This document shows, piece after piece, positions 37,899 to 63,612 of a stretch of DNA of 64,000 bases (the stretch's first letter is position 1; every line of letters begins with the position of its first letter). The DNA is taken from the NCBI GenBank assembly GCA_049287045.1, contig JBAQFC010000010.1, positions 78,179-142,178 of the forward strand, written 5' to 3'. Source of the DNA: Minisyncoccia bacterium. Its GTDB lineage: Bacteria; Patescibacteriota; Minisyncoccia; Phycocordibacterales; UBA9973. The notes below the pieces were generated by a model. The model made no database searches. It was not told the origin of the DNA and was given only the letters and a program-made list of their open reading frames with translations. The position numbers and the translations under genes were made by a program.

Positions 37899-40511
37899 TT
37901 ATTCCACAATTGACTGAATAAATTTTTCAGTTTCCTTAATTTCTCTACGCATACCAAGTCGACGATATAAATCAAGGGACTCTCTAGCATATACGACAGA
38001 TTGTTTTAATCTTTCTGTATGAAGGCAAACAATCGCTATGTTAAATTTATCATTAGCGATATATCTGAGTTCTTTTCTTTCAGTGTCTAGTTCTAATGAT
38101 TTCAAAATATATTGTTCAGCCTCAATAAATTCATTTTGCTCTATTAAGATTGCACTGCGGCGATGTAAGACATGGGCCATCATTCGATTAGATTTTAATT
38201 TCTTCGCCCATTTTTCAGCTAAATCAAGCCATTTCCAAGCTTCATCGAAATTTTGGTTAGCAAATTCGACTTCAGAAAAGCGATATGTCCCCCAAAAATT
38301 TGATAATATATTATTAGAATCTTCACCTTTTTTTATGAGTATTTTTGCTAATTCTTCTGATTCGATTAATTTATCTTGCTTGAAGTAAATATGGGATAAG
38401 GTATACCAAGTTGTTACTAGGTCTTTATCATTATTACAATCAATGAATATTTTCTCTGCCGCTTTTAATCTTTTTATTAGTGATTCTTCATCATGACCAT
38501 GCTGTACTAAATAAAGTCTAGCCAATTGCAAGTGTACTTGACTTTGGCGAACTTCGTCATTAAGAGCGTGTGCCGCGGACATTGCCAAATTCAAAATTTC
38601 TAAAAATTCATGAAAAAGACTTTTCGTATACGCAAAGCTCCAAATTCCCTCTGCAATAAGAAATAAATTTTCCCATTCTTGCTGTCTGTTGCACCACCGG
38701 ATTGCTTCCAATAAGTGCGGATATTCATTTTCAATGTCTTCTTGATTTTTGGAATATAATTCTAAATCTGCACCCTTGTCATATGCAAAACGTACTAGCC
38801 ATTCAAGCCATTTATCAATAATTTGCTTACTATTAGTACCCTCAAATTGAGCACTTGAATATCTTTGCACAATAGGTAACACCCAGAACCGATCATGTTC
38901 ATTACGGTTTACGATGAATAGCCTTTGGAGTTGAGATAAACCTGCATCTCTATCTGCAATTGAAAGATTGGTTATATACCCCAAGGCATCCCTTGATGCA
39001 CCTGCATTTTGTTCAAAAAGGGAGCATCCCAACAACAGTATCAATGAATTTTGATCACGTTCTTGAACTAATTCAATTTGACCTTTAATACAGTATTCAG
39101 GTAAATCACCTATTGAGTTTCCTAACCACCTTTCAACTGAGTCAAAATTCTCTCCACTTGCCATCCGTGCAATACTTAACCTTATTGGTAAAGGTAGGCC
39201 TGCTGTCAATTCAAAAATTCTTTGACGCTGATTTATATCCAAGTTGATGTTTCGCGTATTCATGTCTTCAATAATAAGATTATCCGCTTCTGTTGAAGAA
39301 AGCCCCTTAAGGTTCAAAATATCTGCTACATCAAGCCATTCGCGTGATGTGATTATCGCTTTTGTTGGGGAAGGTAATTTTCTGAGGAAGGGCTTTATTC
39401 GTTTGTCTTTTACACTTTCTAAATTATCCATAACTAATAGTGTTCTTTTTTCTTTGAGTGCTTTTTCTACAAGGTTTTCTTGTTCTTCTGGTATTGCTCT
39501 AGTTATATACTCTTTTTCCATTACCCGCGCAATGACCGTATAGACATCTTCAAGAGTACGTAATATCAACTGAGGTAATGAAGCCATTTCTCTTCCTTGG
39601 GCAGTAAGAACTTCTTCTTTTGCTGAAATCCAAATTATATAATCAAATCTTTCCGATTCTGGCAACTCTTCATATTTTTCAATAAATTCACGTGCTATAG
39701 CCAAGGCTAAAGCACTTTTTCCAATCCCTCCGATTCCAGTTATGGCAATTTGCCATGAACGGTCAAAGGGTAATAAGCGATGTCTAAGCCAACTCAACTC
39801 TCGCTCGCGACCAATAAAATTTGTGTAATCAGGCTGAGGAAGATTGTGATACGGTTTAGGATGAGGAAGAGTCAAGGCTATGGGGGACGCATTTAGAAGG
39901 TTTGTGCCGAGAGTAGTAGTAAGCTGAATTAAAGCCTGCCGTATTTCAAAATTTATTTGTGTCATTGATTCTATGTGAATTTTTGCTAGCTCCACATGCT
40001 CTAATACTGCTTCTGTAGAAATTTTCTGAAATTGCAAAGCATAAATTTCACGAATTTCTTTTGTTCCAGGCAGAGTCCATAATTCTTCAACTATACATCG
40101 AAGTAAAAAGTCAACAGCTTTCTTTACTCTTTCTTTATTTACTCGATGAGGTAAAACATCTTCGAAATAATGATCCAAATTATTGCGTTCTTCAGGTTGC
40201 CATGCTCCAGGTCTCCTAATTAATCGAACCAATTCAATTTGGATACTTTCGGATTTTAAAAATTCTTCATCTTGGATAATGGATTCAACCAAATCTTCAT
40301 CTTGTAATGTATATTGAGAAACGAATCTTTCTAAACCTTTATTTATTGCTTTTTCAACTGAGTTATAAAATTCTCCTTCCGAAGATAGTTTTTTTATTTT
40401 TCCAGCAATTTGTTCATCGGCAAATTTTACTGCAAAATCGGCTAAAAGATTAACCAAAAAATCAGTTACATTTATCTTTAACTGGTCCGGAATAAAAAAT
40501 GATATGCCCAT
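37899..40511 (-). CDS. STAND NTPase (NB-ARC-like) with C-terminal TPR repeats and an uncharacterized helical N-terminal domain of about 200 aa.
   Basis: Walker A 'GIGGIGKSALALAIA'. Walker B 'LLVMDNLES'. TPR-like C-terminal third. Confidence 0.75.
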   Translation of the reverse strand: MGISFFIPDQLKINVTDFLVNLLADFAVKFADEQIAGKIKKLSSEGEFYNSVEKAINKGLERFVSQYTLQDEDLVESIIQDEEFLKSESIQIELVRLIRRPGAWQPEERNNLDHYFEDVLPHRVNKERVKKAVDFLLRCIVEELWTLPGTKEIREIYALQFQKISTEAVLEHVELAKIHIESMTQINFEIRQALIQLTTTLGTNLLNASPIALTLPHPKPYHNLPQPDYTNFIGRERELSWLRHRLLPFDRSWQIAITGIGGIGKSALALAIAREFIEKYEELPESERFDYIIWISAKEEVLTAQGREMASLPQLILRTLEDVYTVIARVMEKEYITRAIPEEQENLVEKALKEKRTLLVMDNLESVKDKRIKPFLRKLPSPTKAIITSREWLDVADILNLKGLSSTEADNLIIEDMNTRNINLDINQRQRIFELTAGLPLPIRLSIARMASGENFDSVERWLGNSIGDLPEYCIKGQIELVQERDQNSLILLLGCSLFEQNAGASRDALGYITNLSIADRDAGLSQLQRLFIVNRNEHDRFWVLPIVQRYSSAQFEGTNSKQIIDKWLEWLVRFAYDKGADLELYSKNQEDIENEYPHLLEAIRWCNRQQEWENLFLIAEGIWSFAYTKSLFHEFLEILNLAMSAAHALNDEVRQSQVHLQLARLYLVQHGHDEESLIKRLKAAEKIFIDCNNDKDLVTTWYTLSHIYFKQDKLIESEELAKILIKKGEDSNNILSNFWGTYRFSEVEFANQNFDEAWKWLDLAEKWAKKLKSNRMMAHVLHRRSAILIEQNEFIEAEQYILKSLELDTERKELRYIANDKFNIAIVCLHTERLKQSVVYARESLDLYRRLGMRREIKETEKFIQSIVE

Positions 40512-53418: not shown

Positions 53419-54298
53419 ATTATTAATTTTTCTGCCTACTCTTTGTTCGGATTTTCGGTTTGCTCCAGTTATTATTTGTTATCCATTAGGTGTCTTTGTT
53501 GCATCTGCAATACTGTTCACCTCGTAAGGAACTATTCCTAATCCCATAATTACTTTAAACAAAAACAATAGTTTTTTAATGCTAAATAAATGGTATTGAA
53601 GATTAGTATTCATTTAGTTCTTTTCTTTATTCTCACCTAATTATTTTCCATTAAAACATCAGTTATTTATTCCAATTAACTTTTTTGTTAAAAATAACAT
53701 CTTTCCCATAAACTATTTAGCAATTTTTGTCAATGGATGGTCTAAATTCAGTTTTCTTTTTTTTATACCTCTACAAATGTATTTTCATTATAAAATAAAA
53801 AAATATAATTGGGAGTTAAGAAATATTTGTAGTTAATATTCTGTGGCTAAGTAACAATTATTTTTTCACTCAGGACAATTAATGTTTTTTATTTTTGTAA
53901 AAATTAAAAACATAATCTTCTGAATCGCTTTAATAGACTGGGTATTACTGTGTCGAAGTTTTTTTAAAATATTTTTATATTTTTTATTTGCTAAAAAAAG
54001 TTATCATGAGCATTCATCTGCAATAAATATTCACTGGTTCATTTTACGGCTACGTTTGATAAAAATATCATGACGTCTGTTCATTTCAGCAATCATATTT
54101 TGAAAAATTACATTAAGTTTATCAAAAAACAGATGTGGGTAATTTTTCATTGAAGATTTATTCTATATGATAAAAAGAAGACGTATTTAAAATGAGATTT
54201 ATTAGAGTTTGTCAAAGAAAATTAATTTGACAAGGATTGCATTATAACCGAGTAGCCGAAAACGGTATCAATAGTAGGCATTAAAATAATTAGTAACT

Positions 54299-54652
54299 AT
54301 GGCCACAAAACAACAATTAGAATTAAGTGCAGACAATATTATTGCCTCAGTCGATTTGGAAAAAGATCCTAAAGAACAATTTAAGATTGTATGGTTAGGA
54401 ACTGTCAAACCCATTTTAGAACTAGTGAAATCATTCACTGGTGCAAAAATTGATGAACAAATTGCGAGACTTGAAATTGCAGCTGATAGAGTGTGTGATG
54501 AAAAAAATGTCGATGTAACTAATTATTGTCAGATTTGGAACTCATTTCATCTTAAAAGTTTATTGAAGTTTGTTCAAACTTTTACTGGTCCAAAAGTAGA
54601 TAAAGCAATCAATAAATTCATTGAGATTTCAGATAGTTTCTGCCTGAATTAG
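54299..54652 (+). CDS. Hypothetical protein with an internal tandem duplication of about 45 aa.
   Basis: 'ILELVKSFTGAKIDEQIARLEIAADRVCDE' and 'LLKFVQTFTGPKVDKAINKFIEISDSFC'. Confidence 0.4.
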   Translation: MATKQQLELSADNIIASVDLEKDPKEQFKIVWLGTVKPILELVKSFTGAKIDEQIARLEIAADRVCDEKNVDVTNYCQIWNSFHLKSLLKFVQTFTGPKVDKAINKFIEISDSFCLN

Positions 54653-54706
54653 AATTTTTAATTTACTAAATATTAAACTTGAGTATTTAATTTTTAAAAC
54701 GATATC

Positions 54707-54985
54707 ATGAGCTATATTATGGTTTCCGGGGATTTCCCTGATATTAATTCAGAACAGAGAAAAAAAATTTACGAATGTTTGAAATTGAAGAATTGGAAGA
54801 AAGTTACCGAGCCAGGGAGAGATATTGATACTGTTTGGTACGGATCTTTTGTTGAAAGTGTTTCTGAGGTCGATGCAAAGAGAATAACAAAATCGGATTT
54901 CGAGACCTGCTCGAGCCCTTATTGCATGCCTAAGCTTGTCGTTCATTGGGGACCAGAGAAACCTTCATTTTATAATTTGGTTTAA
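54707..54985 (+). CDS. Hypothetical protein.
   Basis: 92-aa ORF. Confidence 0.35.
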   Translation: MSYIMVSGDFPDINSEQRKKIYECLKLKNWKKVTEPGRDIDTVWYGSFVESVSEVDAKRITKSDFETCSSPYCMPKLVVHWGPEKPSFYNLV

Positions 54986-55148
54986 TATTTCTGAACCTAG
55001 TTTCTTAATATGATGAAGCTCCCTATACTTGAAATTTTAATAACGACATACAATGTTTTAATATTAGTATACTTAGAAATAGGGTAATAAATTTTCAAAA
55101 TTAAGATTTGGATTTTCTATTAAAATAACAGTATTTATATTCTAGAGG

Positions 55149-55379
55149 ATGAAAAATTCAGAAAGCTATTTATCTGAAATAGCCGAAACAAAAACTGAAA
55201 ATGACTTTGAAATCAAAGGCAATATTAATATTTTAGAAAAGAGAGAATTAAAACGTTGGAGTGAGTTATTATGTTGCAAAGAAGAAGATCTAATACAATC
55301 AGTTTTAGTGATTGGTAATAATGCAAAAATTGTTGACACTTATCTCTACTTGAATCGAAAAAAAGTAATCAAAAACTAA
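55149..55379 (+). CDS. Hypothetical protein.
   Basis: 76-aa ORF. Confidence 0.35.
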   Translation: MKNSESYLSEIAETKTENDFEIKGNINILEKRELKRWSELLCCKEEDLIQSVLVIGNNAKIVDTYLYLNRKKVIKN

Positions 55380-55752
55380 AATGTTATATAGAAAAAATAT
55401 TTCAAAAAATATTTCCTTATAACTTGAACCTAATAGAGGTTGCTCAATTAGATCAGGTTGCGGTCTCAACCACAATAATAAATTCTTAAATCAATAAAAT
55501 AATTTATCTAAAAATTAACAACATACCACCAAATTCATTTTTAAATGAAGACTGGTCAGAATATGACAACAGAAAAATAAGAGACAATCGAGATGGGAAA
55601 TTTTTTGCCTGTACGGAATCTTGGGAAAAAGATTATCTAAAAAGAAAAATTCGAAACAGGTTTCCTTCCTTCTCTGAGATTATCATTAGCAATGCAATTG
55701 AACAATGTTGCAAAACCATTGGGTCTCCTCATCCAAGAAGAGTTTTTGTTGA

Positions 55753-56079
55753 ATGCGTTTTAAAAAGATTAGGAATCATTTAAAAATATATGAGATGGAA
55801 TTATACAATAAATCCAATATGCTTTATAACGATTATAATTGGAAAGCAAAATATGAACATGATGACCCTAAAATCACTGGAGAGCCTGACAGTTCATTGC
55901 TCAGTAGACATGAAGGGTATGAGATGCTATATTTTATAAATAAGTTCGCGGAGATCCATTCGCTAAAACAAGTGAATACCTGCCAGAGAATTGAAGAATT
56001 AATTAGAAAAAAACTCCCATCTGATATCAGAAGCCAAATAAAAGTTAAAGAATGGCTTGAAACAAATTGGGATAAATAA
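55753..56079 (+). CDS. Hypothetical protein overlapping the CD-NTase gene start by 23 nt. Possible accessory.
   Basis: 108-aa ORF. Overlap suggests co-transcription. Confidence 0.4.
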   Translation: MRFKKIRNHLKIYEMELYNKSNMLYNDYNWKAKYEHDDPKITGEPDSSLLSRHEGYEMLYFINKFAEIHSLKQVNTCQRIEELIRKKLPSDIRSQIKVKEWLETNWDK

Positions 56080-57121
56080 ACTGAATATGATAAAAAATTA
56101 TACGCAAAGACTTGATAAACTTAAAAAGAGAAGAACAGATGATATCCTGCAAAAGGCTTACCTTTCTGAATCTTTCGGCAAGTCCGAATTTAAGGAAAGT
56201 GTAAAATATACACTTGAATCAATGAAAGCAATTGAAGCAAGCTATACGAAAAATACATTTTTAGCTTCAGAGAAAGTGCAAACCAATTTGTCCAAAGGGT
56301 TTACTGAAAAAAATATTAAAGTGACATACCGTCATCAAGGATCGGTTGAAACCAATACTAGTATTAAGCTGCATAGCGATATTGATTTATTAGTAATTAC
56401 TGGTAAATACTTTTCATTGGAACCTCCTCAGATTCCAGCAAATCCGTACACAGGTGATCCTTTGGATGACTTAAAAGAATTAAGAACAGTCTCTTTTTCA
56501 CTTTTGACTGGTATTTACAAAAAAGTAAATGATTCAAAGCCCAAAGCAATTCAGGTATTTCCAACAGAACCTGATAGAAAAGTAGATGTTGTTGTTGCTA
56601 ATTGGTATCATTCCCTGGAGTACTACGCTAACGGAAGTACCGACAGATTTATTGGAATTCATATTTATGATAAAAATCAACATTCAAGGAAAGCAGATTT
56701 TCCTTTTTTGCATATTTCAAAACTAAATGAAAAGGATATCCTAGCAAAAGGGGGATTGAAAAAGCTCATACGGTTATTGAAGACTTTAAAAGTGGATGCA
56801 GATTCTGAGATTAATTTATCGAGTTTTGAAATAACGAGCATGATGTTTGAGATGTCATTAGTGTCTCTTATAAAATCTGAATCACAGTCTTTGCTTCTGT
56901 TACCTGAAGCCAGCAAACAATTGGATAAAATTATTACGGATAAGGTTTATAGGGAAAACCTATACTCTCCAAATGGCAAAGAATTAGTTTTCGGAATAAA
57001 CACAGAGAAGATTGTTGAAATAAAAAAATTAAAACTGGAACTGGATGAATTAATCCAGGATATTACCGAAGACTTATCTAAGTCATTCAGAAAAATTGAT
57101 GCCCAATTTATTTATTCTTAA
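56057..57121 (+). CDS. SMODS/CD-NTase-like nucleotidyltransferase (CBASS-like cyclic-oligonucleotide synthase candidate).
   Basis: Pol-beta-type NTase core 'HQGSVETNTSIKLHSDIDLLVI' (GS...DxD) with third acidic residue in 'VDVVVANW'. Adjacent overlapping effector gene. Confidence 0.65.
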   Translation: MKQIGINKLNMIKNYTQRLDKLKKRRTDDILQKAYLSESFGKSEFKESVKYTLESMKAIEASYTKNTFLASEKVQTNLSKGFTEKNIKVTYRHQGSVETNTSIKLHSDIDLLVITGKYFSLEPPQIPANPYTGDPLDDLKELRTVSFSLLTGIYKKVNDSKPKAIQVFPTEPDRKVDVVVANWYHSLEYYANGSTDRFIGIHIYDKNQHSRKADFPFLHISKLNEKDILAKGGLKKLIRLLKTLKVDADSEINLSSFEITSMMFEMSLVSLIKSESQSLLLLPEASKQLDKIITDKVYRENLYSPNGKELVFGINTEKIVEIKKLKLELDELIQDITEDLSKSFRKIDAQFIYS

Positions 57122-58058
57122 TGTTATGAAACCAAGAATTTTTATCGGCTCCTCAGGAGAAGGGATAGATATCGCTAACTATGTAAAATCTTTATTGCAA
57201 ATTGATTTTGAGGTATATTTATGGACGGATGATATTTTTAAAGCTAATAAAAGTTTTTTAGATACCTTATTGAAGGAAGCCGGGTATTTTGATTTTGGAA
57301 TATTAATAGCCACAAAAGATGATTATACTAAATCAAGGGATAAGTCATTTGATGTTCCTCGTGACAATGTAATTTTTGAATTCGGGCTTTTCCTTGGACG
57401 ATTGGGGCCATCAAGAGCTTTTATTATCCAAGAAGAAGATGCAAAGCTTCCTTCTGATTTATTTGGAATTACAATTCCTCGCTTTAAGAAAATGCTTGAT
57501 ATTTCTAATTCAGATAGCTTGAACAAAGAGATTGAAAAAATTAAACAAACAATTCAAGAAAAATTTACATTGGGTGAATTAGGATTACTACCATCTACAG
57601 CGCTTGCAATTGGATATTATTATAATTTTATTTCAACTGTTTGTGAAACACTTCAGGCAAAAAAGGAAATTGAAGTTGGAGGCAAAAGATTCCTGCAATT
57701 TGAAATAAATGTTGTTTTACCTAAAGCACTGGACTCTGATATAAAAAAGAGGGCGACTATTTATTTTAGAAGGAATGAATTAACTCAAATTCAGTTTGAT
57801 TCATCAGGCAGAAGTTTTCCGGTGTTCGTAACATATGATAATGAAGCAAATGGAGTGTTAAAACTATATGATATGCCAACTACTTTGAATGGAATTGACA
57901 AAGCAATTGAAATGTACATGCAAAAAGGACATGTTGGTAAATCATCGCAACAAAAATTACTAGAGGAAAGAGAGTTAAGAAATTTTCAGCAAACATTACA
58001 AAATTTAATCAATAATGACGCTTTTACAAAAGATAATGTTAAAATAATTTTGGAATAA
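57096..58058 (+). CDS. TIR-like (pfam10137-type) N-terminal effector domain plus C-terminal candidate nucleotide-sensor domain (STING-like size).
   Basis: N-terminal 'KPRIFIGSSGEGIDIANYV' resembles the TIR-like 'KVFIVHG' start. 26-nt overlap with the CD-NTase gene. C-terminal domain is about 160 aa. Confidence 0.5.
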   Translation: MMPNLFILNVMKPRIFIGSSGEGIDIANYVKSLLQIDFEVYLWTDDIFKANKSFLDTLLKEAGYFDFGILIATKDDYTKSRDKSFDVPRDNVIFEFGLFLGRLGPSRAFIIQEEDAKLPSDLFGITIPRFKKMLDISNSDSLNKEIEKIKQTIQEKFTLGELGLLPSTALAIGYYYNFISTVCETLQAKKEIEVGGKRFLQFEINVVLPKALDSDIKKRATIYFRRNELTQIQFDSSGRSFPVFVTYDNEANGVLKLYDMPTTLNGIDKAIEMYMQKGHVGKSSQQKLLEERELRNFQQTLQNLINNDAFTKDNVKIILE

Positions 58059-58238: not shown

Positions 58239-58439
58239 ATGGAAAAAAAGAAATCTCCTTTTAAAGAAAGCTTTACTCAAGGTATGGGAAGCGAAATTGG
58301 TAAAAGGACAGCAACAATTATTATTAGTATAATACTCGTCCTTATTCTTTCTTTTTGGGGGTTATTTCGAAGCGAAACATCATCTTCAGAAAATCAAGCG
58401 CCAATTAAAGTTGCTGGGAAAAATGGAAATACTGATTAA
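58239..58439 (+). CDS. Small membrane protein.
   Basis: TM 'TATIIISIILVLILSFWGLF'. Confidence 0.35.
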   Translation: MEKKKSPFKESFTQGMGSEIGKRTATIIISIILVLILSFWGLFRSETSSSENQAPIKVAGKNGNTD

Positions 58440-58464
58440 ATCATTGAACAAATAAAAATAAAAG

Positions 58465-58962
58465 ATGAAAGCAAGTCTACATTTAGTAATTATTTTATTC
58501 AGCATGTTAGTATTATTGAATGGGTGTAAAAAAGAAGGTCCGGAGGGGCCTGCTGGAAAAGATGGAAATGCAAATGTTCAATCAAGTACAATTACCTTCT
58601 CAACTTGGCTATGGGACGGAACAAATAATTATGATTATTCTGATTTTACATGGGCTGCAATAACATCATCAATTGTTGATAAAGGTGCAGTCCTTGTTTA
58701 TGTTAATACTCCAGGCGGTTGGGCTCCTCTTCCTCGAACAATTTACCCATCAGCTACATATTCAGAAAGTCAAAGATTTATATATAATGTAGGAACTTTC
58801 AGGATAATTGTTCAAGATTCGGATTTGACCCAACCAAGTCCAGCTCTCGGATCATGGACTATAAAAATATTGACTATTGAAAGTAAAACAATGGTAGCAA
58901 ACTCAAATTTAGATTGGAGTAATTATAATGCTGTAAAAATAAGATTCGAATTAACGGATTAA
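58465..58962 (+). CDS. Lipoprotein with a short collagen-like G-x-x stretch.
   Basis: 'MKASLHLVIILFSMLVLLNGC' lipobox, then 'GPEGPAGKDGNAN'. Confidence 0.5.
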   Translation: MKASLHLVIILFSMLVLLNGCKKEGPEGPAGKDGNANVQSSTITFSTWLWDGTNNYDYSDFTWAAITSSIVDKGAVLVYVNTPGGWAPLPRTIYPSATYSESQRFIYNVGTFRIIVQDSDLTQPSPALGSWTIKILTIESKTMVANSNLDWSNYNAVKIRFELTD

Positions 58963-59098: not shown

Positions 59099-60877
59099 TT
59101 GAAAAATTTAAATTTGTTTATGACTTTATACAGAACAATTTTAGTTAAGTTACTTATTATTTCTTTTGTTGTTTTATCAGAAAATCTTTGGTGCCAATCA
59201 AATTCTAAAAAACAACAGCTCCCCGCGGATTCAGATCACGAATTTGACAATGGTTCTCAAATTGTGAATATTCCTCTAACTCCAGAAAAAATTGAAGATT
59301 TAATGTTGCTTGGAAAACTTTGGGGCTTCCTTAAATACTATCACCCGGCAATAGCTGAAGGGAGATATAACTGGGATTATGAACTCTTTCGCATATTACC
59401 CCAAATTATGGATAGTAAAAGCCTCGAAGAAAGAAACCATATTCTCTTAACCTGGGTTGATAAATTAGGTAAAGTTGAAAAAGGACACCAAGAAAAGCTC
59501 GATAGTTCAAGAATTAAACTCTATCCTGATATAGGATGGATAACAGCCGAGAGTTTTTTAGGAAAAGAACTTTCTACTAAATTAGAGAAAATTAATTCTG
59601 CTGAAAGAAAGGAGGAAAATTGCTATGTTTCCCTAATCCCACATGTACAAAATCCAGATTTTTCAAATGAAAAACCATACAGCAAAATATTATTTCCAGA
59701 CTTAGGTTTTCGTTTACTTGCTTTATATAGGTATTGGAATATTATTGAATATTATAATCCCAACAGACATCTTATTGGAAAAAACTGGGATTCTGTTCTT
59801 TACGAATTTATTCCGAAATTTATTAATGTCTCAAACACTCTAGAATATAAGTTATGTGTCTTAAATTTAATATCACGTATTAATGATACTCATGCTGATT
59901 TATATGGCGATCCCGATATAGAAAAGTTCAAAGGATTATATACTGTGCCATATATCGTCTCTTTTATTGAAAATAAGCCTGTAATAATTGATTATGTTCG
60001 TAATAATGGCATTTTAGATTCTACTTTACGAAAAGGGGACGTAATCCTTGATATTAATTCCGTAGACATAGCAACCATTATTAAACAAAGATTATCTTAC
60101 ACTTCGGGTTCAAATTATGCCGTGCAATTGCGTAAAATTTCATCTGATCTTTTAAGAATAAATGATTCTACTCTTAATATAACTTATCAAAGAGATAGTA
60201 TAATAAAGAATGTTACTATCTCAACAATAACAAAAAGAATTGCTAACAACTATCATCAAATTAAACAGAGTGATTCCTGTTACAAAATTATTACTCCTCA
60301 CATTGGTTATATATATCCCGGGAATATAAAAAAAATATATTTCGATTCTATTATGGATAAGTTTGCTAATACAAAAGGGATTATTATTGATTTACGATAC
60401 TATCCACAAGAATCAATTATACATGAATTGGACAAATATTTGTTTCCAAAACCGGTAGCTTTTGAAATATCATCTACAGGAAGTATAAGCACACCAGGCC
60501 TATTTATGTTACGGAAACAACCCAATCTTGTTGGGGGCAACAAGCCAGGAGCCCTGTATAAAGGAAAAATTATTCTGTTAGTAAATGAAAATACCCAGAG
60601 CCATGCCGAGTTTACAGCCATGGCATTTAGTCAATATGACAAAACTATGGTAATTGGCAGCACCACAGCAGGGGCAGACGGAAATATTTCATGGTTTTAT
60701 TTACCTGGTGGAATACGTACACTTATTAGTGGAATTGGTATTTATTATCCGGATGGAAAAGAAACTCAAAGAATTGGTATTCTTGCCAATCTAAATGTTA
60801 AGCCAACAATAAAGGGAATAAAAGAAGGACGCGATGAATTACTAGAAAAAGCTGTGGAGATCCTAAACGCAAAATGA
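59099..60877 (+). CDS. S41-family (C-terminal processing / tail-specific-like) serine peptidase.
   Basis: N-terminal signal/TM. C-terminal 'ILLVNENTQSHAEFTAMAF...GSTTAGADG' fits the S41 Ser/Lys dyad region. Confidence 0.6.
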   Translation: MKNLNLFMTLYRTILVKLLIISFVVLSENLWCQSNSKKQQLPADSDHEFDNGSQIVNIPLTPEKIEDLMLLGKLWGFLKYYHPAIAEGRYNWDYELFRILPQIMDSKSLEERNHILLTWVDKLGKVEKGHQEKLDSSRIKLYPDIGWITAESFLGKELSTKLEKINSAERKEENCYVSLIPHVQNPDFSNEKPYSKILFPDLGFRLLALYRYWNIIEYYNPNRHLIGKNWDSVLYEFIPKFINVSNTLEYKLCVLNLISRINDTHADLYGDPDIEKFKGLYTVPYIVSFIENKPVIIDYVRNNGILDSTLRKGDVILDINSVDIATIIKQRLSYTSGSNYAVQLRKISSDLLRINDSTLNITYQRDSIIKNVTISTITKRIANNYHQIKQSDSCYKIITPHIGYIYPGNIKKIYFDSIMDKFANTKGIIIDLRYYPQESIIHELDKYLFPKPVAFEISSTGSISTPGLFMLRKQPNLVGGNKPGALYKGKIILLVNENTQSHAEFTAMAFSQYDKTMVIGSTTAGADGNISWFYLPGGIRTLISGIGIYYPDGKETQRIGILANLNVKPTIKGIKEGRDELLEKAVEILNAK

Positions 60878-63612
60878 CAATGAAGTTATTTCCTTATCCA
60901 TTAATACGAGTGGCTGGTCTTCCATTTGATTTAATTAATATTAAAAGTGCTACAAGAGTTGAATTAAATAAATTAATAGATGATTATCAAAATAGTAATT
61001 CTGAACAGGAGGAAAAGAAAAAAGAATTAGATAATTCTCTTTACGAATTAATTAATAAGGAAAAAGATGTAAAAATTCGAAAAGAAATTTTGAATATTAA
61101 AAGAGATATATTTAATGATAGATTTATAATAGGGCGACATTCATTGGAAGTTGTAAATGAAGAACTAAATAATTCTCTGTATTTATTTTCCTTTAAACAA
61201 AATAAATATGAAAAAGATATTGAAAAAGGCAAAATTTGTTACAATAGAATTCTTGATGAAGAAAGATTAAACCTTAAATATATATTTGAGCAATTTGAGT
61301 TAAAAAATGCATTATTGCTCTCAAGTAGTGATTTGTTGAATAATATTAATAAATACGATCCTTATATCAAAATAAAAAATAAAAAATTTCATCAACTTGA
61401 AGCAAGTATGTATAAATATGCTACAAGAATTTGTTCCAAGACTTCTCCGTTCAGTACATTTACATCCGTTGGATTAGCAAACTTTTCAGATGTGCCAAAC
61501 CATAATCTTATTGTTGCAGGCACCTCACAACGATCAATTTCGCTTATTAGATTTAATTCATTAATATTCAGACAAATTATCATTTGTCTTAAAGCAAATA
61601 AATTTTACAGACAATTTTTTTTTATTACGTTAAATTCTTCAATAACTTTAAAAGGCGATCATTATTTATTCCTTATAAACCGGTATAATAAGGAAACTTT
61701 TCAAAGATTAAGTTATAATAGGATTCTTAAAGTCATACACAAAAAATTATCAATTAAAAAAAAACTCACATTTAATGATATTAAAAAATATATCAAAAAC
61801 AAAGTAGAGGAGGACGAAGGGGAGATAGAGAATTATTTGTTAGAATTAATTAATTATGGTTTTTTGGAAATACAAATTGGAATTTCAGAAATAGATTCTT
61901 CTTGGGATACAAAATTAATGGACTTTCTGAAAAAGTGTGATATTAAAGACAATTTGCTCGGATCCAAATTATTATCATTAATTAAATGGAAGGAGAAATA
62001 TATTAATACTGAAAATTATACGGAGAGGAGAAGTATATTACTGGATCTTCATAAATCATACAAAGAAATATTATATATAACCCTTATTGATAGTGATTAT
62101 TTTATTAAGAGTAATAATAATATTTATTATTTTTATAGACGCCCACTTGATCAAAACAATATTCTAGATTTTACATTCAAAGAAATTGCGCTTGAAAATA
62201 TAATATTTGAAGATGTAAGAAAGGACATTGGTCTTGATATTTCTTTTAAAAAAGTTGAAGAAATTGCCCAAAAATTTAATCGACTTACGAATGAAACAAA
62301 ACTATTCAAAATTTATAATTTAGAATCTTTTAATGCATTTAATTATTATAAAACCACCTATAAGGAAACAAATATTGATTTACTTACATTTTACGAAGAT
62401 TACTTTAGAAATAAATACGAAAAACAATTTATTATTAATTCGGATCTTGGTAATAATATTCCAAACAAAAAGAATGTTGAAATTCCTCAACAGATTAAAG
62501 TTATAAATAATAATAAAATAAAATGGAAAAAGAGTTTTGAAAGTGGTGCAAAACAAATTGATAATAATTTTCAGTTTCATTTCAATGAAATATATTTAAA
62601 TGAGATTAATAAAAAAAGTGACACTCTATGTTTTAATAGTAAGTCAAAAAACTCATTCAGTTCTTTTGTTCAGTTTTATTATTCTGGCGATCATAAAAAT
62701 GGAAAACAATTAATGGCTGTATTTAGTCCTGCAACATACGGCTATGGTAAATTATATAGCCGATTTTTAAATTTATTTCCAAAAGAAGTATTACAAGAAA
62801 TGAAAAATTGGAATAATAAATTACTCAGTGAAACTGAAATATTTGTTGAGAACTCTGATTCAACTGTTTTTAACGCCAACCTTCACCCTCCAATTATGGA
62901 TTATGAAATAAATATTCCAGGTGGAAATAATTTATTTATGAAAAATCATCAAATCCGAGTGTCAGATATAACTATAAAAATTAATGATAAAACGCAAAAA
63001 TTAGAACTTTCTCATAAATTATCCGGTAAATCTATAACAATTTTTGATTTATGTCTACAAGGAAATAAAGGGCGTTCCAATTTATTTCAGTTATTAGAAA
63101 TATTTTCCAGAGCTGAACACTTAGGTAATTTTTATTTAGCAATTTTCAATGAAACTTTTGGAGTTGATTTAGAGGTGAAGAATTATTTTGGAAAAAAAAT
63201 TAAACATTATCCTAGGATAATATTCGATGAGTGTATTGTTGTTCAAAGGAAATATTGGATCATTCCGAGGGAATGTATACCAAGCGTTCAAAAAGATTCC
63301 AATTTTAATTCCTTTTTTGTATTTAATGGTTGGAGAAAAGAGTTAGGATTGCCTAATGAAGTCTTTGTTCGTATAAATAGAAGACCTGACTATTCAAAAA
63401 TCCCTGCTGAAAAAAAACGCAAACAAGATGATTATAAACCACAATACATTAATTTTATGAGTCCACTGTCTGTTATTTATTTTGAAAAACTTATTCGTAA
63501 GGTTAACAATGAATTTACGATAGAAGAAATGCTACCTAACTCCGAACAGTTGTTTACTATTAATAATAGGAAAACAGTTACAGAATTTCTAATTCAATGG
63601 AATAACCAATGA
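60874..63612 (+). CDS. Lanthipeptide/thiopeptide-type dehydratase, LanB N-terminal (glutamylation) domain. Split-LanB large subunit.
   Basis: N-terminal 'LFPYPLIRVAGLPFDL' and 'YKYATRICSKTSPFSTFTSVGLANF', comparable to NisB 'FLVRNTIL' and 'RSTPFGLF'. 912 aa. ATGA overlap with the next gene. Confidence 0.7.
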   Translation: MTMKLFPYPLIRVAGLPFDLINIKSATRVELNKLIDDYQNSNSEQEEKKKELDNSLYELINKEKDVKIRKEILNIKRDIFNDRFIIGRHSLEVVNEELNNSLYLFSFKQNKYEKDIEKGKICYNRILDEERLNLKYIFEQFELKNALLLSSSDLLNNINKYDPYIKIKNKKFHQLEASMYKYATRICSKTSPFSTFTSVGLANFSDVPNHNLIVAGTSQRSISLIRFNSLIFRQIIICLKANKFYRQFFFITLNSSITLKGDHYLFLINRYNKETFQRLSYNRILKVIHKKLSIKKKLTFNDIKKYIKNKVEEDEGEIENYLLELINYGFLEIQIGISEIDSSWDTKLMDFLKKCDIKDNLLGSKLLSLIKWKEKYINTENYTERRSILLDLHKSYKEILYITLIDSDYFIKSNNNIYYFYRRPLDQNNILDFTFKEIALENIIFEDVRKDIGLDISFKKVEEIAQKFNRLTNETKLFKIYNLESFNAFNYYKTTYKETNIDLLTFYEDYFRNKYEKQFIINSDLGNNIPNKKNVEIPQQIKVINNNKIKWKKSFESGAKQIDNNFQFHFNEIYLNEINKKSDTLCFNSKSKNSFSSFVQFYYSGDHKNGKQLMAVFSPATYGYGKLYSRFLNLFPKEVLQEMKNWNNKLLSETEIFVENSDSTVFNANLHPPIMDYEINIPGGNNLFMKNHQIRVSDITIKINDKTQKLELSHKLSGKSITIFDLCLQGNKGRSNLFQLLEIFSRAEHLGNFYLAIFNETFGVDLEVKNYFGKKIKHYPRIIFDECIVVQRKYWIIPRECIPSVQKDSNFNSFFVFNGWRKELGLPNEVFVRINRRPDYSKIPAEKKRKQDDYKPQYINFMSPLSVIYFEKLIRKVNNEFTIEEMLPNSEQLFTINNRKTVTEFLIQWNNQ

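What the first reader, a model, noticed from the sequence alone, without database searches (positions are those of the whole stretch)
55753..58058. Minimal CBASS-like operon: SMODS/CD-NTase-like nucleotidyltransferase plus TIR-like effector with a STING-sized C-terminal domain, and an overlapping 108-aa upstream ORF
The 354-aa protein carries the Pol-beta NTase signature (GS-x10-HSDIDLLV, downstream VDVVV) typical of SMODS/cGAS-DncV-like cyclases. It overlaps by 26 nt a 320-aa protein whose N-terminus (KPRIFIGSSGEG...) resembles the TIR-like pfam10137 fold. The C-terminal half of that protein, about 160 aa, is the right size for a bacterial STING-type cyclic-dinucleotide sensor. Cyclase plus TIR-STING operons have been described in Bacteroidetes with c-di-GMP signalling. 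A 108-aa ORF overlaps the cyclase start by 23 nt, which is unusual for a type I CBASS. It may be an uncharacterized accessory or regulator, or a spurious call.
Basis: partly seen in the sequence, partly recalled or inferred. Interest (0 to 1): 0.6.

Follow-up and report, generated by a model that had tools for sequence, protein, structure and literature searches.

The report
Known CBASS operon: CdnE plus TIR-STING
This is an ordinary two-gene bacterial anti-phage CBASS system (a c-di-GMP-type cyclase plus a TIR-STING NAD-destroying effector), preceded by a small conserved gene of unknown function that also sits next to many unrelated defence systems in other bacteria.

Summary
The 320-aa ORF is a Cap12 TIR-STING effector. 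It passes the NCBIfam equivalog cutoff (483 vs 450 bits), carries Pfam TIR and prok_STING domains, and is 61% identical over its full length to the solved, biochemically characterised Epilithonimonas lactis TIR-STING. All catalytic and c-di-GMP-contact residues are conserved. The 354-aa ORF is a CBASS cyclase of the STING-associated CdnE type (PADLOC 5e-105; PDB 6wt8/6wt9 about 5e-40) with an intact GS / DxD / D active site.

Both reported overlaps come from longest-ORF calling. Homology and an independent gene call put the starts at ATG 55795, 56087 and 57126, giving proteins of 94, 344 and 310 aa separated by 7 and 4 nt.

The small ORF is a real gene. Its family has about 700 clusters, a confident predicted fold, and no Pfam or structural match. 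It is not CBASS-specific and is absent from most CdnE-Cap12 operons. Elsewhere it lies just upstream of a HindIII-type restriction enzyme, Avs1, PD-Lambda-5, Dsr1, an Old/Gabija-like ATPase, Thoeris ThsB and PDC-S06, on plasmids, prophages and conjugative elements. Its function is unknown.

Overall this is a new member of a known kind, with a modestly interesting side lead.

The parts
57126..58058 (+). cap12: TIR-STING effector, 310 aa from the ATG at 57126 (the maximal ORF starts at TTG 57096).
   Evidence: NCBIfam equivalog NF050172, 483.1 bits against a cutoff of 450. PADLOC CBASS TIR effector PDLC00729, 3e-125. PDB 9lmq Cap12 4.5e-120 over the full length and 7un8 SfSTING 3e-65. The same 310-aa gene call appears on the identical contig L173.
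57135..57488 (+). TIR (NADase) domain of Cap12, residues 4-121, with catalytic E85, BB-loop W33/F38, and S10, R79, N81 and D111.
   Evidence: Pfam PF10137, 2.6e-31. Residues were mapped onto ElSTING E86/W34/F39 and SfSTING F6/S10/W33/F37/L47/R78/N80/E84/D110, and all are conserved (residue roles from PMC12421889 and PMC9402430).
57591..58001 (+). Prokaryotic STING cyclic-dinucleotide-binding domain of Cap12, residues 156-292, with R229, F231 and F168 at the ligand site and D258/E262 at the Ca site.
   Evidence: Pfam PF20300, 1.2e-36, covering the whole profile 1-137. The ElSTING c-di-GMP contacts R230, F232 and F169 and the Ca site D260/E264 are conserved.
56087..57121 (+). cdnE: CBASS CD-NTase, 344 aa from the ATG at 56087 (the maximal ORF starts at TTG 56057). 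The active site is G85-S86, D98-x-D100 and D167.
   Evidence: PADLOC oligonucleotide cyclase PDLC00807, 5.3e-105, full length from ORF residue 11. PDB 6wt8 'STING-associated CdnE c-di-GMP synthase' 5.3e-40 and 6wt9 3.4e-39, with the DxD and third Asp aligned.
55795..56079 (+). Its function is unknown. Its stop lies 7 nt before the cdnE ATG.
   Evidence: 20 homologs at 46-70% identity, all starting at this Met, with 18 invariant columns. 695 cluster representatives in a profile search. AF2 mean pLDDT 84.2. phrog_33929, 1.1e-15. The same 94-aa call appears on L173.
55149..55379 (+). 76-aa DUF3606-like ORF, conserved at the left end of the same block in the closest relatives.
   Evidence: Pfam DUF3606 1.6e-4, below the gathering score. 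62% identical to the 67-aa gene at the same relative position in L058-L060, and 67% identical to one in L070.
55490..55783 (+). Variable slot: a 97-codon open frame with no ATG/GTG/TTG start. The same position holds an unrelated 115-aa HNH-like gene in L058 and L001.
   Evidence: Three-frame translation. No similarity in any fetched locus. No significant PHROG hit. Status as gene or relic is unresolved.

Best explanation
The locus is a type I (two-gene) CBASS anti-phage system of the CdnE / TIR-STING class.

Inferred mechanism, by homology to characterised relatives. The 344-aa CD-NTase CdnE stays inactive until phage infection; the trigger is unknown even for the model systems. It then cyclises GTP into 3'3'-c-di-GMP. 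The signal binds in the pocket between two STING domains of the Cap12 homodimer, at R229/F231/F168. This drives head-to-head filament or bundle assembly, which brings the N-terminal TIR domains together and completes the NADase site (E85, W33, F38, and D111 from the partner). NAD+ is then depleted and the infected cell arrests or dies before the phage can spread.

Shown here: domain architecture, family membership, conserved catalytic and ligand residues, and gene order and spacing. Inferred: the product, the filamentation and the phenotype.

The 94-aa gene 7 nt upstream is almost certainly co-transcribed, but it is not a core CBASS part. It belongs to a phylum-spanning family resident in defence islands and mobile elements. 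It recurs immediately upstream of many unrelated defence cargos, and those cargos are exchanged downstream of it. My best guess, at roughly 0.35, is a portable leader or regulatory gene for toxic defence cargo. This is an inference from context only.
For: Cap12:
- NCBIfam equivalog above cutoff.
- Pfam TIR and prok_STING domains.
- 61% identity to ElSTING and 44% to SfSTING, with all functional residues conserved.
- ElCdnE makes only c-di-GMP, and ElSTING E86 is required for NADase activity and defence (PMC12421889). The SfSTING mechanism is in PMC9402430.

CdnE:
- PADLOC cyclase, 5e-105.
- 6wt8/6wt9 at about 5e-40, with the catalytic triad aligned.

Operon:
- CdnE immediately precedes Cap12 in about 20 of the 29 full-length Cap12 loci from other genomes.
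- No Cap2/Cap3/HORMA-type hits in the flanking ORFs.

Small gene:
- Conserved, with a confident predicted fold.
- Directly upstream of CdnE-Cap12 in the window, L001, L058-60 and L173, and in the deeply divergent L155, where a 161-aa gene lies between them.
- Absent upstream of CdnE in L003-L008.
- Elsewhere upstream of a HindIII-family REase, Avs1a/b, PD-Lambda-5, PDC-S06, Dsr1, an Old/GajA-like ATPase and ThsB.
- A cargo swap occurs downstream of a 98%-identical copy in E. coli plasmids.
Against: - No biochemical or phage data exist for this locus.
- No NCBIfam cyclase model reaches its cutoff, and Pfam NTP_transf_2 is sub-threshold, so the CdnE assignment rests on PADLOC models and PDB homologs at moderate identity.
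- Three ElSTING fibre-bundle contact residues (E25, K26, F128) are not conserved (Q25, gap, S127), so higher-order assembly may differ in detail.
- For the small gene, no DNA-binding or other known domain or fold was found.
- The family's pI ranges from 4.6 to 9.0.
- No shared operator motif was found.
- Defence genes are about as frequent just upstream of the small gene as downstream. This fits a defence-island resident as well as it fits the leader of the downstream operon.
Confidence: 0.85

Rival explanations
1. The 94-aa protein is a dedicated CBASS accessory. For example, it could sense a phage cue or restrain CdnE, which would make this a new CBASS subtype rather than type I.
For: The stop-to-ATG gap of 7 nt is conserved (6-8 nt) in the window, L001 and L058. 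A second, very divergent CdnE-TIR-STING operon (L155, about 34% identity) also has a family member upstream. The activating cue of CdnE is unknown (PMC9402430).
Against: It is missing from L003-L008, the next-closest CdnE-Cap12 operons with ample upstream flank. Most family members sit next to non-CBASS genes. Downstream partners are mutually unrelated. ElCdnE and ElSTING work in vitro without such a partner (PMC12421889).
Confidence: 0.08
2. The small gene has no functional link to the CBASS genes. It is a mobile-element or defence-island passenger, or the flank of a hotspot, and happens to lie beside whatever cargo is inserted downstream.
For: It occurs in P2-like prophages between the replication gene and the portal gene, on conjugative elements beside TraG, on ColE1-type plasmids and on megaplasmids. 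The cargo downstream is swapped while the gene is retained. Defence hits are similarly frequent among the upstream neighbours. It matches phage families phrog_33929 and phrog_32103.
Against: The host elements share no common backbone, so the gene itself must move with or next to defence cargo. It is consistently on the same strand with short gaps (7-80 nt) to several defence genes. On 4.3-kb plasmids the only cargo is the R-M system plus this gene.
Confidence: 0.35
3. The small gene is an anti-defence (counter-immunity) gene that mobile elements carry in the same variable regions as defence genes.
For: It is small, has no known domain, is present in phage protein families and on conjugative or mobilisable elements, and has ParB_N, RadC and Lin1244_N neighbours in some loci.
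Against: It is co-oriented with and tightly coupled to the host element's own defence operons, including a restriction enzyme on a 4.3-kb plasmid. It has no similarity to any known anti-defence protein in the PDB or BFVD.
Confidence: 0.1
4. One reading: the nucleotidyltransferase is a minimal MNT-type antitoxin or other non-signalling NTase, and the pair is a toxin-antitoxin or Pycsar-like module rather than CBASS.
For: Pfam detects only a weak NTP_transf_2 match (0.033). The PF10137 TIR domain is shared with Pycsar effectors (PycTIR, 1.7e-28).
Against: The protein is 344 aa and has full-length matches to CBASS cyclase models (5e-105) and to the CdnE structures 6wt8/6wt9. The partner carries a complete STING domain and passes the Cap12 equivalog cutoff. 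No HEPN domain or pyrimidine cyclase is present.
Confidence: 0.01

Closest known systems
Epilithonimonas lactis ElCdnE / ElSTING CBASS (PDB 9lmq/9lmr; PMC12421889)
   Same: Same two-gene order, cyclase then TIR-STING. Cap12 is 61% identical over the full length. Catalytic E86 (here E85), BB-loop W34/F39, c-di-GMP contacts R230/F232/F169 and the Ca site D260/E264 are all conserved.
   Different: The fibre-bundle TIR contact residues E25/K26/F128 are not conserved (Q25/gap/S127). The paper describes no upstream small gene, whereas here a 94-aa gene precedes cdnE by 7 nt. The organism differs: the nearest relatives are Flavobacterium and Saprospiraceae MAGs.
Sphingobacterium faecium TIR-STING (SfSTING, PDB 7un8) and the Flavobacteriaceae / Capnocytophaga STING-associated CdnE enzymes (PDB 6wt8, 6wt9)
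   Same: Same architecture and active-site residues: SfSTING F6, S10, W33, F37, L47, R78, N80, E84 and D110 are all conserved here. The CdnE GS / DxD / D triad aligns.
   Different: Lower identity: 44% to SfSTING, and CdnE matches in two stretches at E of about 5e-40.
Controller (C) proteins of type II R-M systems, and CapW/BrxR-type regulators shared among defence systems
   Same: This comparison concerns only the 94-aa gene. It is small, sits just upstream of and co-oriented with toxic defence genes, including a HindIII-family restriction enzyme, and is reused across unrelated systems.
   Different: No HTH or WYL domain and no sequence or fold similarity to these regulators. No conserved operator was found. 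The resemblance is positional only.

Membership tests
Cap12 TIR-STING effector (NCBIfam NF050172, CDNTAsCap12CFB2) | Whole-protein score above the curated equivalog cutoff | tested here: met
   483.1 bits against a cutoff of 450, with full-length alignment 11-318 of the ORF to profile positions 1-312.
Cap12 TIR-STING effector | N-terminal TIR domain with the catalytic Glu and NAD-site residues | tested here: met
   PF10137, 2.6e-31. E85, W33, F38, F6, S10, L48, R79, N81 and D111 are conserved against ElSTING and SfSTING.
Cap12 TIR-STING effector | C-terminal prokaryotic STING domain with the c-di-GMP contact residues | tested here: met
   PF20300, 1.2e-36, covering the complete profile. R229, F231 and F168 are conserved.
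Cap12 TIR-STING effector | c-di-GMP-induced filament formation that activates NAD+ hydrolysis | not testable with these tools
   Requires purified protein. Inferred from 61% identity to ElSTING.
CBASS CD-NTase, STING-associated CdnE type | cGAS/DncV-like fold with a GS ... [DE]xD ... D active site | tested here: met
   G85-S86, D98-I-D100 and D167, aligned to 6wt8/6wt9. PADLOC cyclase PDLC00807, 5.3e-105.
CBASS CD-NTase, STING-associated CdnE type | Passing a curated family cutoff (NCBIfam CBASS cyclase or Pfam) | tested here: not met
   The best NCBIfam hits are far below cutoff: NF053871 at 40 against 350 bits and NF041117 at 23.6 against 200. Pfam NTP_transf_2 scores 15 against 21. These models cover other clades, so the assignment rests on PADLOC and PDB homologs.
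CBASS CD-NTase, STING-associated CdnE type | Synthesis of 3'3'-c-di-GMP | not testable with these tools
   Inferred from the 6wt8 annotation, ElCdnE biochemistry (PMC12421889) and the conserved STING ligand residues.
Type I CBASS (cyclase plus effector only) | Cyclase adjacent to a sensor-effector protein, with no Cap2/Cap3 (E1/E2/JAB) or HORMA/TRIP13 genes | tested here: met
   A 4-nt gap separates cdnE and cap12. The flanking ORFs 54299-55379 have no PADLOC, Pfam or NCBIfam accessory hits. The two downstream ORFs (58239-58962) were scanned with Pfam only.
Type I CBASS | Protection against phage by abortive infection | not testable with these tools
   Needs phage challenge assays.
   The NTase is 344 aa with full-length cyclase matches. 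Its partner is TIR-STING, with no HEPN domain.
Known defence regulators (C proteins, CapW/BrxR, CapH/CapP), considered for the 94-aa protein | Recognisable HTH, WYL or related DNA-binding domain or fold | tested here: not met
   No Pfam, NCBIfam or PADLOC hit. Foldseek against PDB and BFVD gives best E values of at least 0.8. The PDB profile search gives a best E of 0.13.

The most novel reading that the evidence does not exclude
The 94-aa protein defines an undescribed family with a new fold, about 700 clusters from Bacteroidota to Proteobacteria, also present on plasmids, prophages and conjugative elements. In this reading it acts as a portable leader or controller placed directly upstream of toxic effectors of many unrelated defence systems (CBASS TIR-STING, HindIII/EcoVIII-type R-M, Avs1, PD-Lambda-5, Dsr1, Old/Gabija-like, Thoeris ThsB). 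It would gate their expression or activity when the cargo enters a new host. That role is like a C protein or CapW, with no detectable homology to either.
Probability: 0.25. Interest if true: 0.65.

Novelty: new member of a known kind. Interest (0 to 1): 0.33.

Why it matters
The CBASS pair adds one more well-conserved example to a class whose signal, structures and mechanism are already established, so it changes nothing conceptually.

The useful by-product is the small upstream gene. It is real, widespread and unannotated. It lies beside at least eight different known defence systems in unrelated mobile elements, and cargo is exchanged immediately downstream of it. If it proves to be a shared regulator or accessory, it would be a new common component of defence islands. 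It could be tested cheaply on the 4.3-kb EcoVIII-type E. coli plasmids, whose R-M regulation is still only partly explained.

Tried and rejected
1. Real gene overlaps: rejected. All homology starts at residue 11 of both large ORFs and at residue 15 of the small one, and the independent call on L173 agrees.
2. MNT antitoxin or Pycsar readings: rejected.
3. Small ORF as a spurious call: rejected.
4. Small ORF as a CBASS-specific accessory: not supported.
6. PDB profile search: only a sub-threshold Skp1 C-terminal resemblance (E=0.13). Foldseek does not support it, so I treat it as noise.
7. Pfam scan of all 20 family members: no recurrent family.
8. A fixed second partner gene downstream: none found. 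The downstream proteins are mutually unrelated.
9. A shared operator or palindrome upstream of the small genes: none. A CTGAA-N-TTCAG hairpin occurs in 4 of 90 regions against 0.6% of control windows, and these look like terminators of the preceding genes.
10. Domain fusions: uninformative. One is a tandem duplication with Ala/Lys-rich linkers, one is a probable integrase run-on, and the rest are over-extended starts.
11. tblastn against annotated phage genomes: no hit.
12. The sigma-70 promoter and terminator scan: not informative, with fewer hits than in shuffled sequence, and it is the wrong promoter type for Bacteroidota.
13. The EcoVIII/pEC156 literature: no mention of the ORF.
14. The startless frame at 55490-55783: no homolog in any fetched locus.
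Full report
**Observation**

The quoted motifs are present, although the spacing is GS-x9-HSDIDLLV rather than x10.

The overlaps of 23 and 26 nt exist only because the list uses the first ATG/GTG/TTG after a stop.
- Every profile and structure match to the two large proteins starts at ORF residue 11. That residue is an in-frame ATG in both cases, at 56087 and 57126.
- All 19 homologs of the small ORF start at its residue 15, ATG 55795.
- An independent gene call on an identical metagenome contig gives 94, 344 and 310 aa (L173).

With these starts the genes are packed head to tail, with gaps of 7 and 4 nt and no overlap.

**The effector**

The 310-aa protein has a complete CAP12/Pycsar-type TIR domain (PF10137, 2.6e-31) followed by a complete prokaryotic STING domain (PF20300, 1.2e-36, profile positions 1-137). 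It exceeds the curated NCBIfam equivalog cutoff for the CBASS NAD+ hydrolase Cap12 (NF050172, 483.1 vs 450 bits). It also matches the PADLOC CBASS TIR effector model end to end (3e-125).

Against solved structures it aligns over its full length with 9lmq (4.5e-120) and 7un8 (SfSTING, 3e-65). The residue numbers published for Epilithonimonas lactis TIR-STING (S9, E25, K26, W34, F39, E86, F128, F169, R230, F232, D260, E264; PMC12421889) fit the 9lmq sequence, so 9lmq is ElSTING. Global alignment gives 61% identity to ElSTING and 44% to SfSTING.

| Role | Reference residues | Window Cap12 |
|---|---|---|
| Catalytic Glu | ElSTING E86 / SfSTING E84 | E85 |
| BB loop | ElSTING W34, F39 | W33, F38 |
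| Rest of SfSTING NAD site (PMC9402430) | F6, S10, L47, R78, N80, D110 | F6, S10, L48, R79, N81, D111 |
| c-di-GMP contacts | ElSTING R230, F232, F169 | R229, F231, F168 |
| Ca site | ElSTING D260, E264 | D258, E262 |
| Fibre-bundle TIR contacts | ElSTING E25, K26, F128 | Q25, gap, S127 (not conserved) |

Every catalytic and ligand residue is conserved. Only the three fibre-bundle contacts differ, so the details of higher-order packing may differ.

**The cyclase**

Pfam sees only a sub-threshold NTP_transf_2 match, and no NCBIfam cyclase model reaches its cutoff. PADLOC CBASS cyclase models match at full length (PDLC00807, 5.3e-105). The best solved relatives are the two STING-associated CdnE enzymes 6wt8, deposited as 'STING-associated CdnE c-di-GMP synthase', and 6wt9, at about 5e-40, with the catalytic residues aligned. 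These residues are G85-S86, D98-x-D100 and D167.

**Conservation of the pair**

A genome scan with Cap12 returned 57 loci. Twenty-nine of them encode full-length TIR-STING, mostly in Bacteroidota: Flavobacterium, Chryseobacterium, Chitinophaga, Hymenobacter, Pedobacter and Saprospiraceae. A few are in other phyla. In about 20 of these a CdnE homolog lies immediately upstream of Cap12.

The flanking ORFs in the window carry no Cap2/Cap3/HORMA-type domains, so the architecture is type I CBASS. The window has about 30% G+C, and the nearest relatives are a Flavobacterium MAG (Cap12 87% identical) and a Saprospiraceae MAG (79%).

**Mechanism**

By homology to ElCdnE/ElSTING and SfSTING:
1. CdnE is switched on by an unidentified phage cue.
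2. It makes 3'3'-c-di-GMP.
3. The STING dimer binds the signal and polymerises.
4. The TIR domains are brought together to form a composite NADase site.
5. NAD+ depletion aborts the infection (PMC12421889, PMC9402430).

Architecture, residues and gene order are shown here. The product, the filamentation and the phenotype are inferred.

**The small ORF is a real gene**

A word-indexed search found 20 homologs of 86-106 aa at 46-100% identity. An alignment of the window protein with 19 of them has 18 invariant columns. A full HMM search of 1.84 billion cluster representatives found 695 members at E of 0.001 or below, 388 of them at 1e-10 or below, and nearly all are standalone proteins of 90-100 aa.

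AlphaFold2 gives a confident model (mean pLDDT 84.2, pTM 0.76): an extended N-terminal segment packed on three C-terminal helices. The protein has no Pfam, NCBIfam or PADLOC match. It has no significant structural neighbour in the PDB or BFVD and no PDB sequence relative (best E 0.13). It does match two phage protein families of unknown function, phrog_33929 (1.1e-15) and phrog_32103.

**Is it part of the CBASS?**

It sits 6-8 nt upstream of cdnE in the window, in L001 and in L058-L060. A family member also lies upstream of a deeply divergent CdnE-TIR-STING operon, L155 (about 34% identity), separated from it by a 161-aa gene.

It is absent from the next-closest operons, L003-L008, which have kilobases of upstream flank. 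Its more distant relatives lie in quite different settings.

In the close relatives the conserved block reads: DUF3606-like gene, variable slot, small gene, cdnE, cap12. The slot holds a 115-aa HNH-like gene in L058 and L001. In the window it holds an unrelated 97-codon frame without a start codon. In L070 the DUF3606-like gene and the small gene are kept, but the downstream gene is an unrelated 338-aa protein.

**Systematic context**

I collected 95 more loci from metagenome and viral contigs. With the earlier loci this gave 117 loci carrying a family member. I extracted the same-strand downstream genes within 300 nt, which gave 66 non-redundant proteins from 47 loci, and 39 upstream neighbours as a control. 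I scanned both sets against PADLOC.

Downstream of the small gene:

| Locus | Downstream defence gene(s) | Arrangement |
|---|---|---|
| window | CBASS CdnE + Cap12 | 7-nt gap |
| L155 | CBASS CdnE + Cap12 | after a 161-aa gene |
| L077 (Cupriavidus pHG1) | Avs1a/Avs1b | 139-nt gap |
| L075 (E. coli plasmid) | HindIII-family REase | 65-nt gap |
| L096 | PD-Lambda-5 A and B | 41-nt gap |
| L114 | PDC-S06 | 79-nt gap |
| L131 | Dsr1 | after a 169-aa gene |
| L151 | Old/GajA-like ATPase | 8-nt gap |
| L106 | Thoeris ThsB | 47-nt gap |

That gives 9 to 12 of 47 loci (19-26%). From general knowledge, not measured here, defence genes make up about 1% or less of a typical genome. Annotated plasmids add a hypothetical gene followed by an AAA ATPase and a DUF4435 protein in Pseudoalteromonas.

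The upstream neighbours are also rich in defence genes: PDC-S60, GajB, a DRT, PDC-S48, and pAgo and SIR2 hits. The family is therefore best described as a resident of defence islands. The downstream genes are almost all unrelated to one another, so there is no fixed partner.

The host elements include P2-like prophages (the gene lies between the replication gene and the portal gene), conjugative elements, ColE1-type plasmids and a megaplasmid. In E. coli the gene is found only on small plasmids, in 10 of 5426 genomes. There it precedes a HindIII-family enzyme with a convergent methyltransferase. A 3855-bp relative keeps a 98%-identical but degraded copy followed by two unrelated hypothetical genes, which is a cargo swap.

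**What the small protein does is not established**

Its position (small, co-oriented, just upstream of toxic effectors, reused across systems) recalls C proteins and CapW/BrxR. However, there is no domain or fold similarity to them. The family pI ranges from 4.6 to 9.0, and I found no shared operator.

I rate the readings as follows:

| Reading | Probability |
|---|---|
| Portable leader or regulator | about 0.35 (0.25 for the fuller version stated as the novel case) |
| Functionally unlinked island or mobile-element passenger | about 0.35 |
| Anti-defence gene | about 0.1 |
| CBASS-specific accessory | about 0.08 |

The EcoVIII/pEC156 papers I could read do not mention the ORF. A keyword search found no description of such a family. 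That search is not exhaustive.

**Verdict**

The finding is a correct identification of a known kind of system, type I CBASS with CdnE and Cap12 TIR-STING, and a new member of it. The gene starts need correcting, and the overlaps are not real. The side observation about the 94-aa family is the only part with potential novelty.

Noticed in passing
window 55490-55783 (+): A 97-codon open frame with no ATG/GTG/TTG start fills the slot between the DUF3606-like gene and the small gene. Its stop lies 11 nt before ATG 55795. An unrelated 115-aa HNH-like gene occupies the same slot in L058 and L001. It has no homolog in any fetched locus, so it may be a relic or may use an unusual start codon.
   Followed up: partly
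L155:6001-9176 (metagenome contig Ga0209125_1000006): A second, deeply divergent CdnE-TIR-STING operon (about 34% identity to the window's proteins) also has a small-family member upstream, with a 161-aa gene of unknown function between them.
   Followed up: partly
L174 (E. coli plasmid NZ_AP022102.1, 3855 bp) compared with L075, L175 and L176: The same ColE1-type backbone and a 98%-identical (apparently degraded) small gene are present, but the HindIII-family R-M pair is replaced by two hypothetical genes of 172 and 184 aa. The recombination junction for this cargo swap lies just downstream of the small gene.
   Followed up: partly
L077 (Cupriavidus necator H16 pHG1, NC_005241.1 171204-181461): The small gene lies between an AAA ATPase plus a GajB-like helicase (Gabija-like) and Avs1a/Avs1b, inside a compact defence island on the megaplasmid.
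   Followed up: partly
window 37899-40511 (-): An 870-aa protein with NB-ARC/AAA_16 NTPase and TPR domains (a STAND-type NTPase) lies about 15 kb upstream of the CBASS. It could be an Avs-like defence gene.
   Followed up: no
window 59099-63612 (+): An S41 peptidase gene (592 aa) overlaps by 4 nt the start of a 912-aa protein with a lantibiotic dehydratase N-terminal domain. This suggests a lanthipeptide-type gene cluster just downstream of the CBASS.
   Followed up: no
window 53419-54298: An 880-nt AT-rich stretch (G+C about 0.23) with no ORF marks a strand switch. Seven co-oriented small and medium genes, ending with cap12, follow it on the + strand. It is possibly the promoter region of the whole unit.
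   Followed up: no
upstream 200 nt of the small genes in L066, L095, L113 and L168 (related repeats in L093 and L160): A CTGAA-N(0-12)-TTCAG inverted repeat occurs in 4 of 90 upstream regions against 0.6% of control windows. L093 and L095 carry several copies of a GGCTTTCAG / CTGAAAC repeat. These may be terminators of the preceding genes, or a local regulatory site.
   Followed up: partly
P0001: A truncated 86-aa call that is 100% identical to the small protein is deposited under a 'Candidatus Magasanikiibacteriota' MAG, on a 2972-bp contig. All close relatives of the operon are from Bacteroidota, so that contig is probably mis-binned.
   Followed up: no
P0023 (313 aa): A high-G+C family member carries two tandem copies of the small-protein domain joined by Ala/Lys-rich, histone-tail-like linkers. 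This is a weak hint of nucleic-acid association.
   Followed up: no
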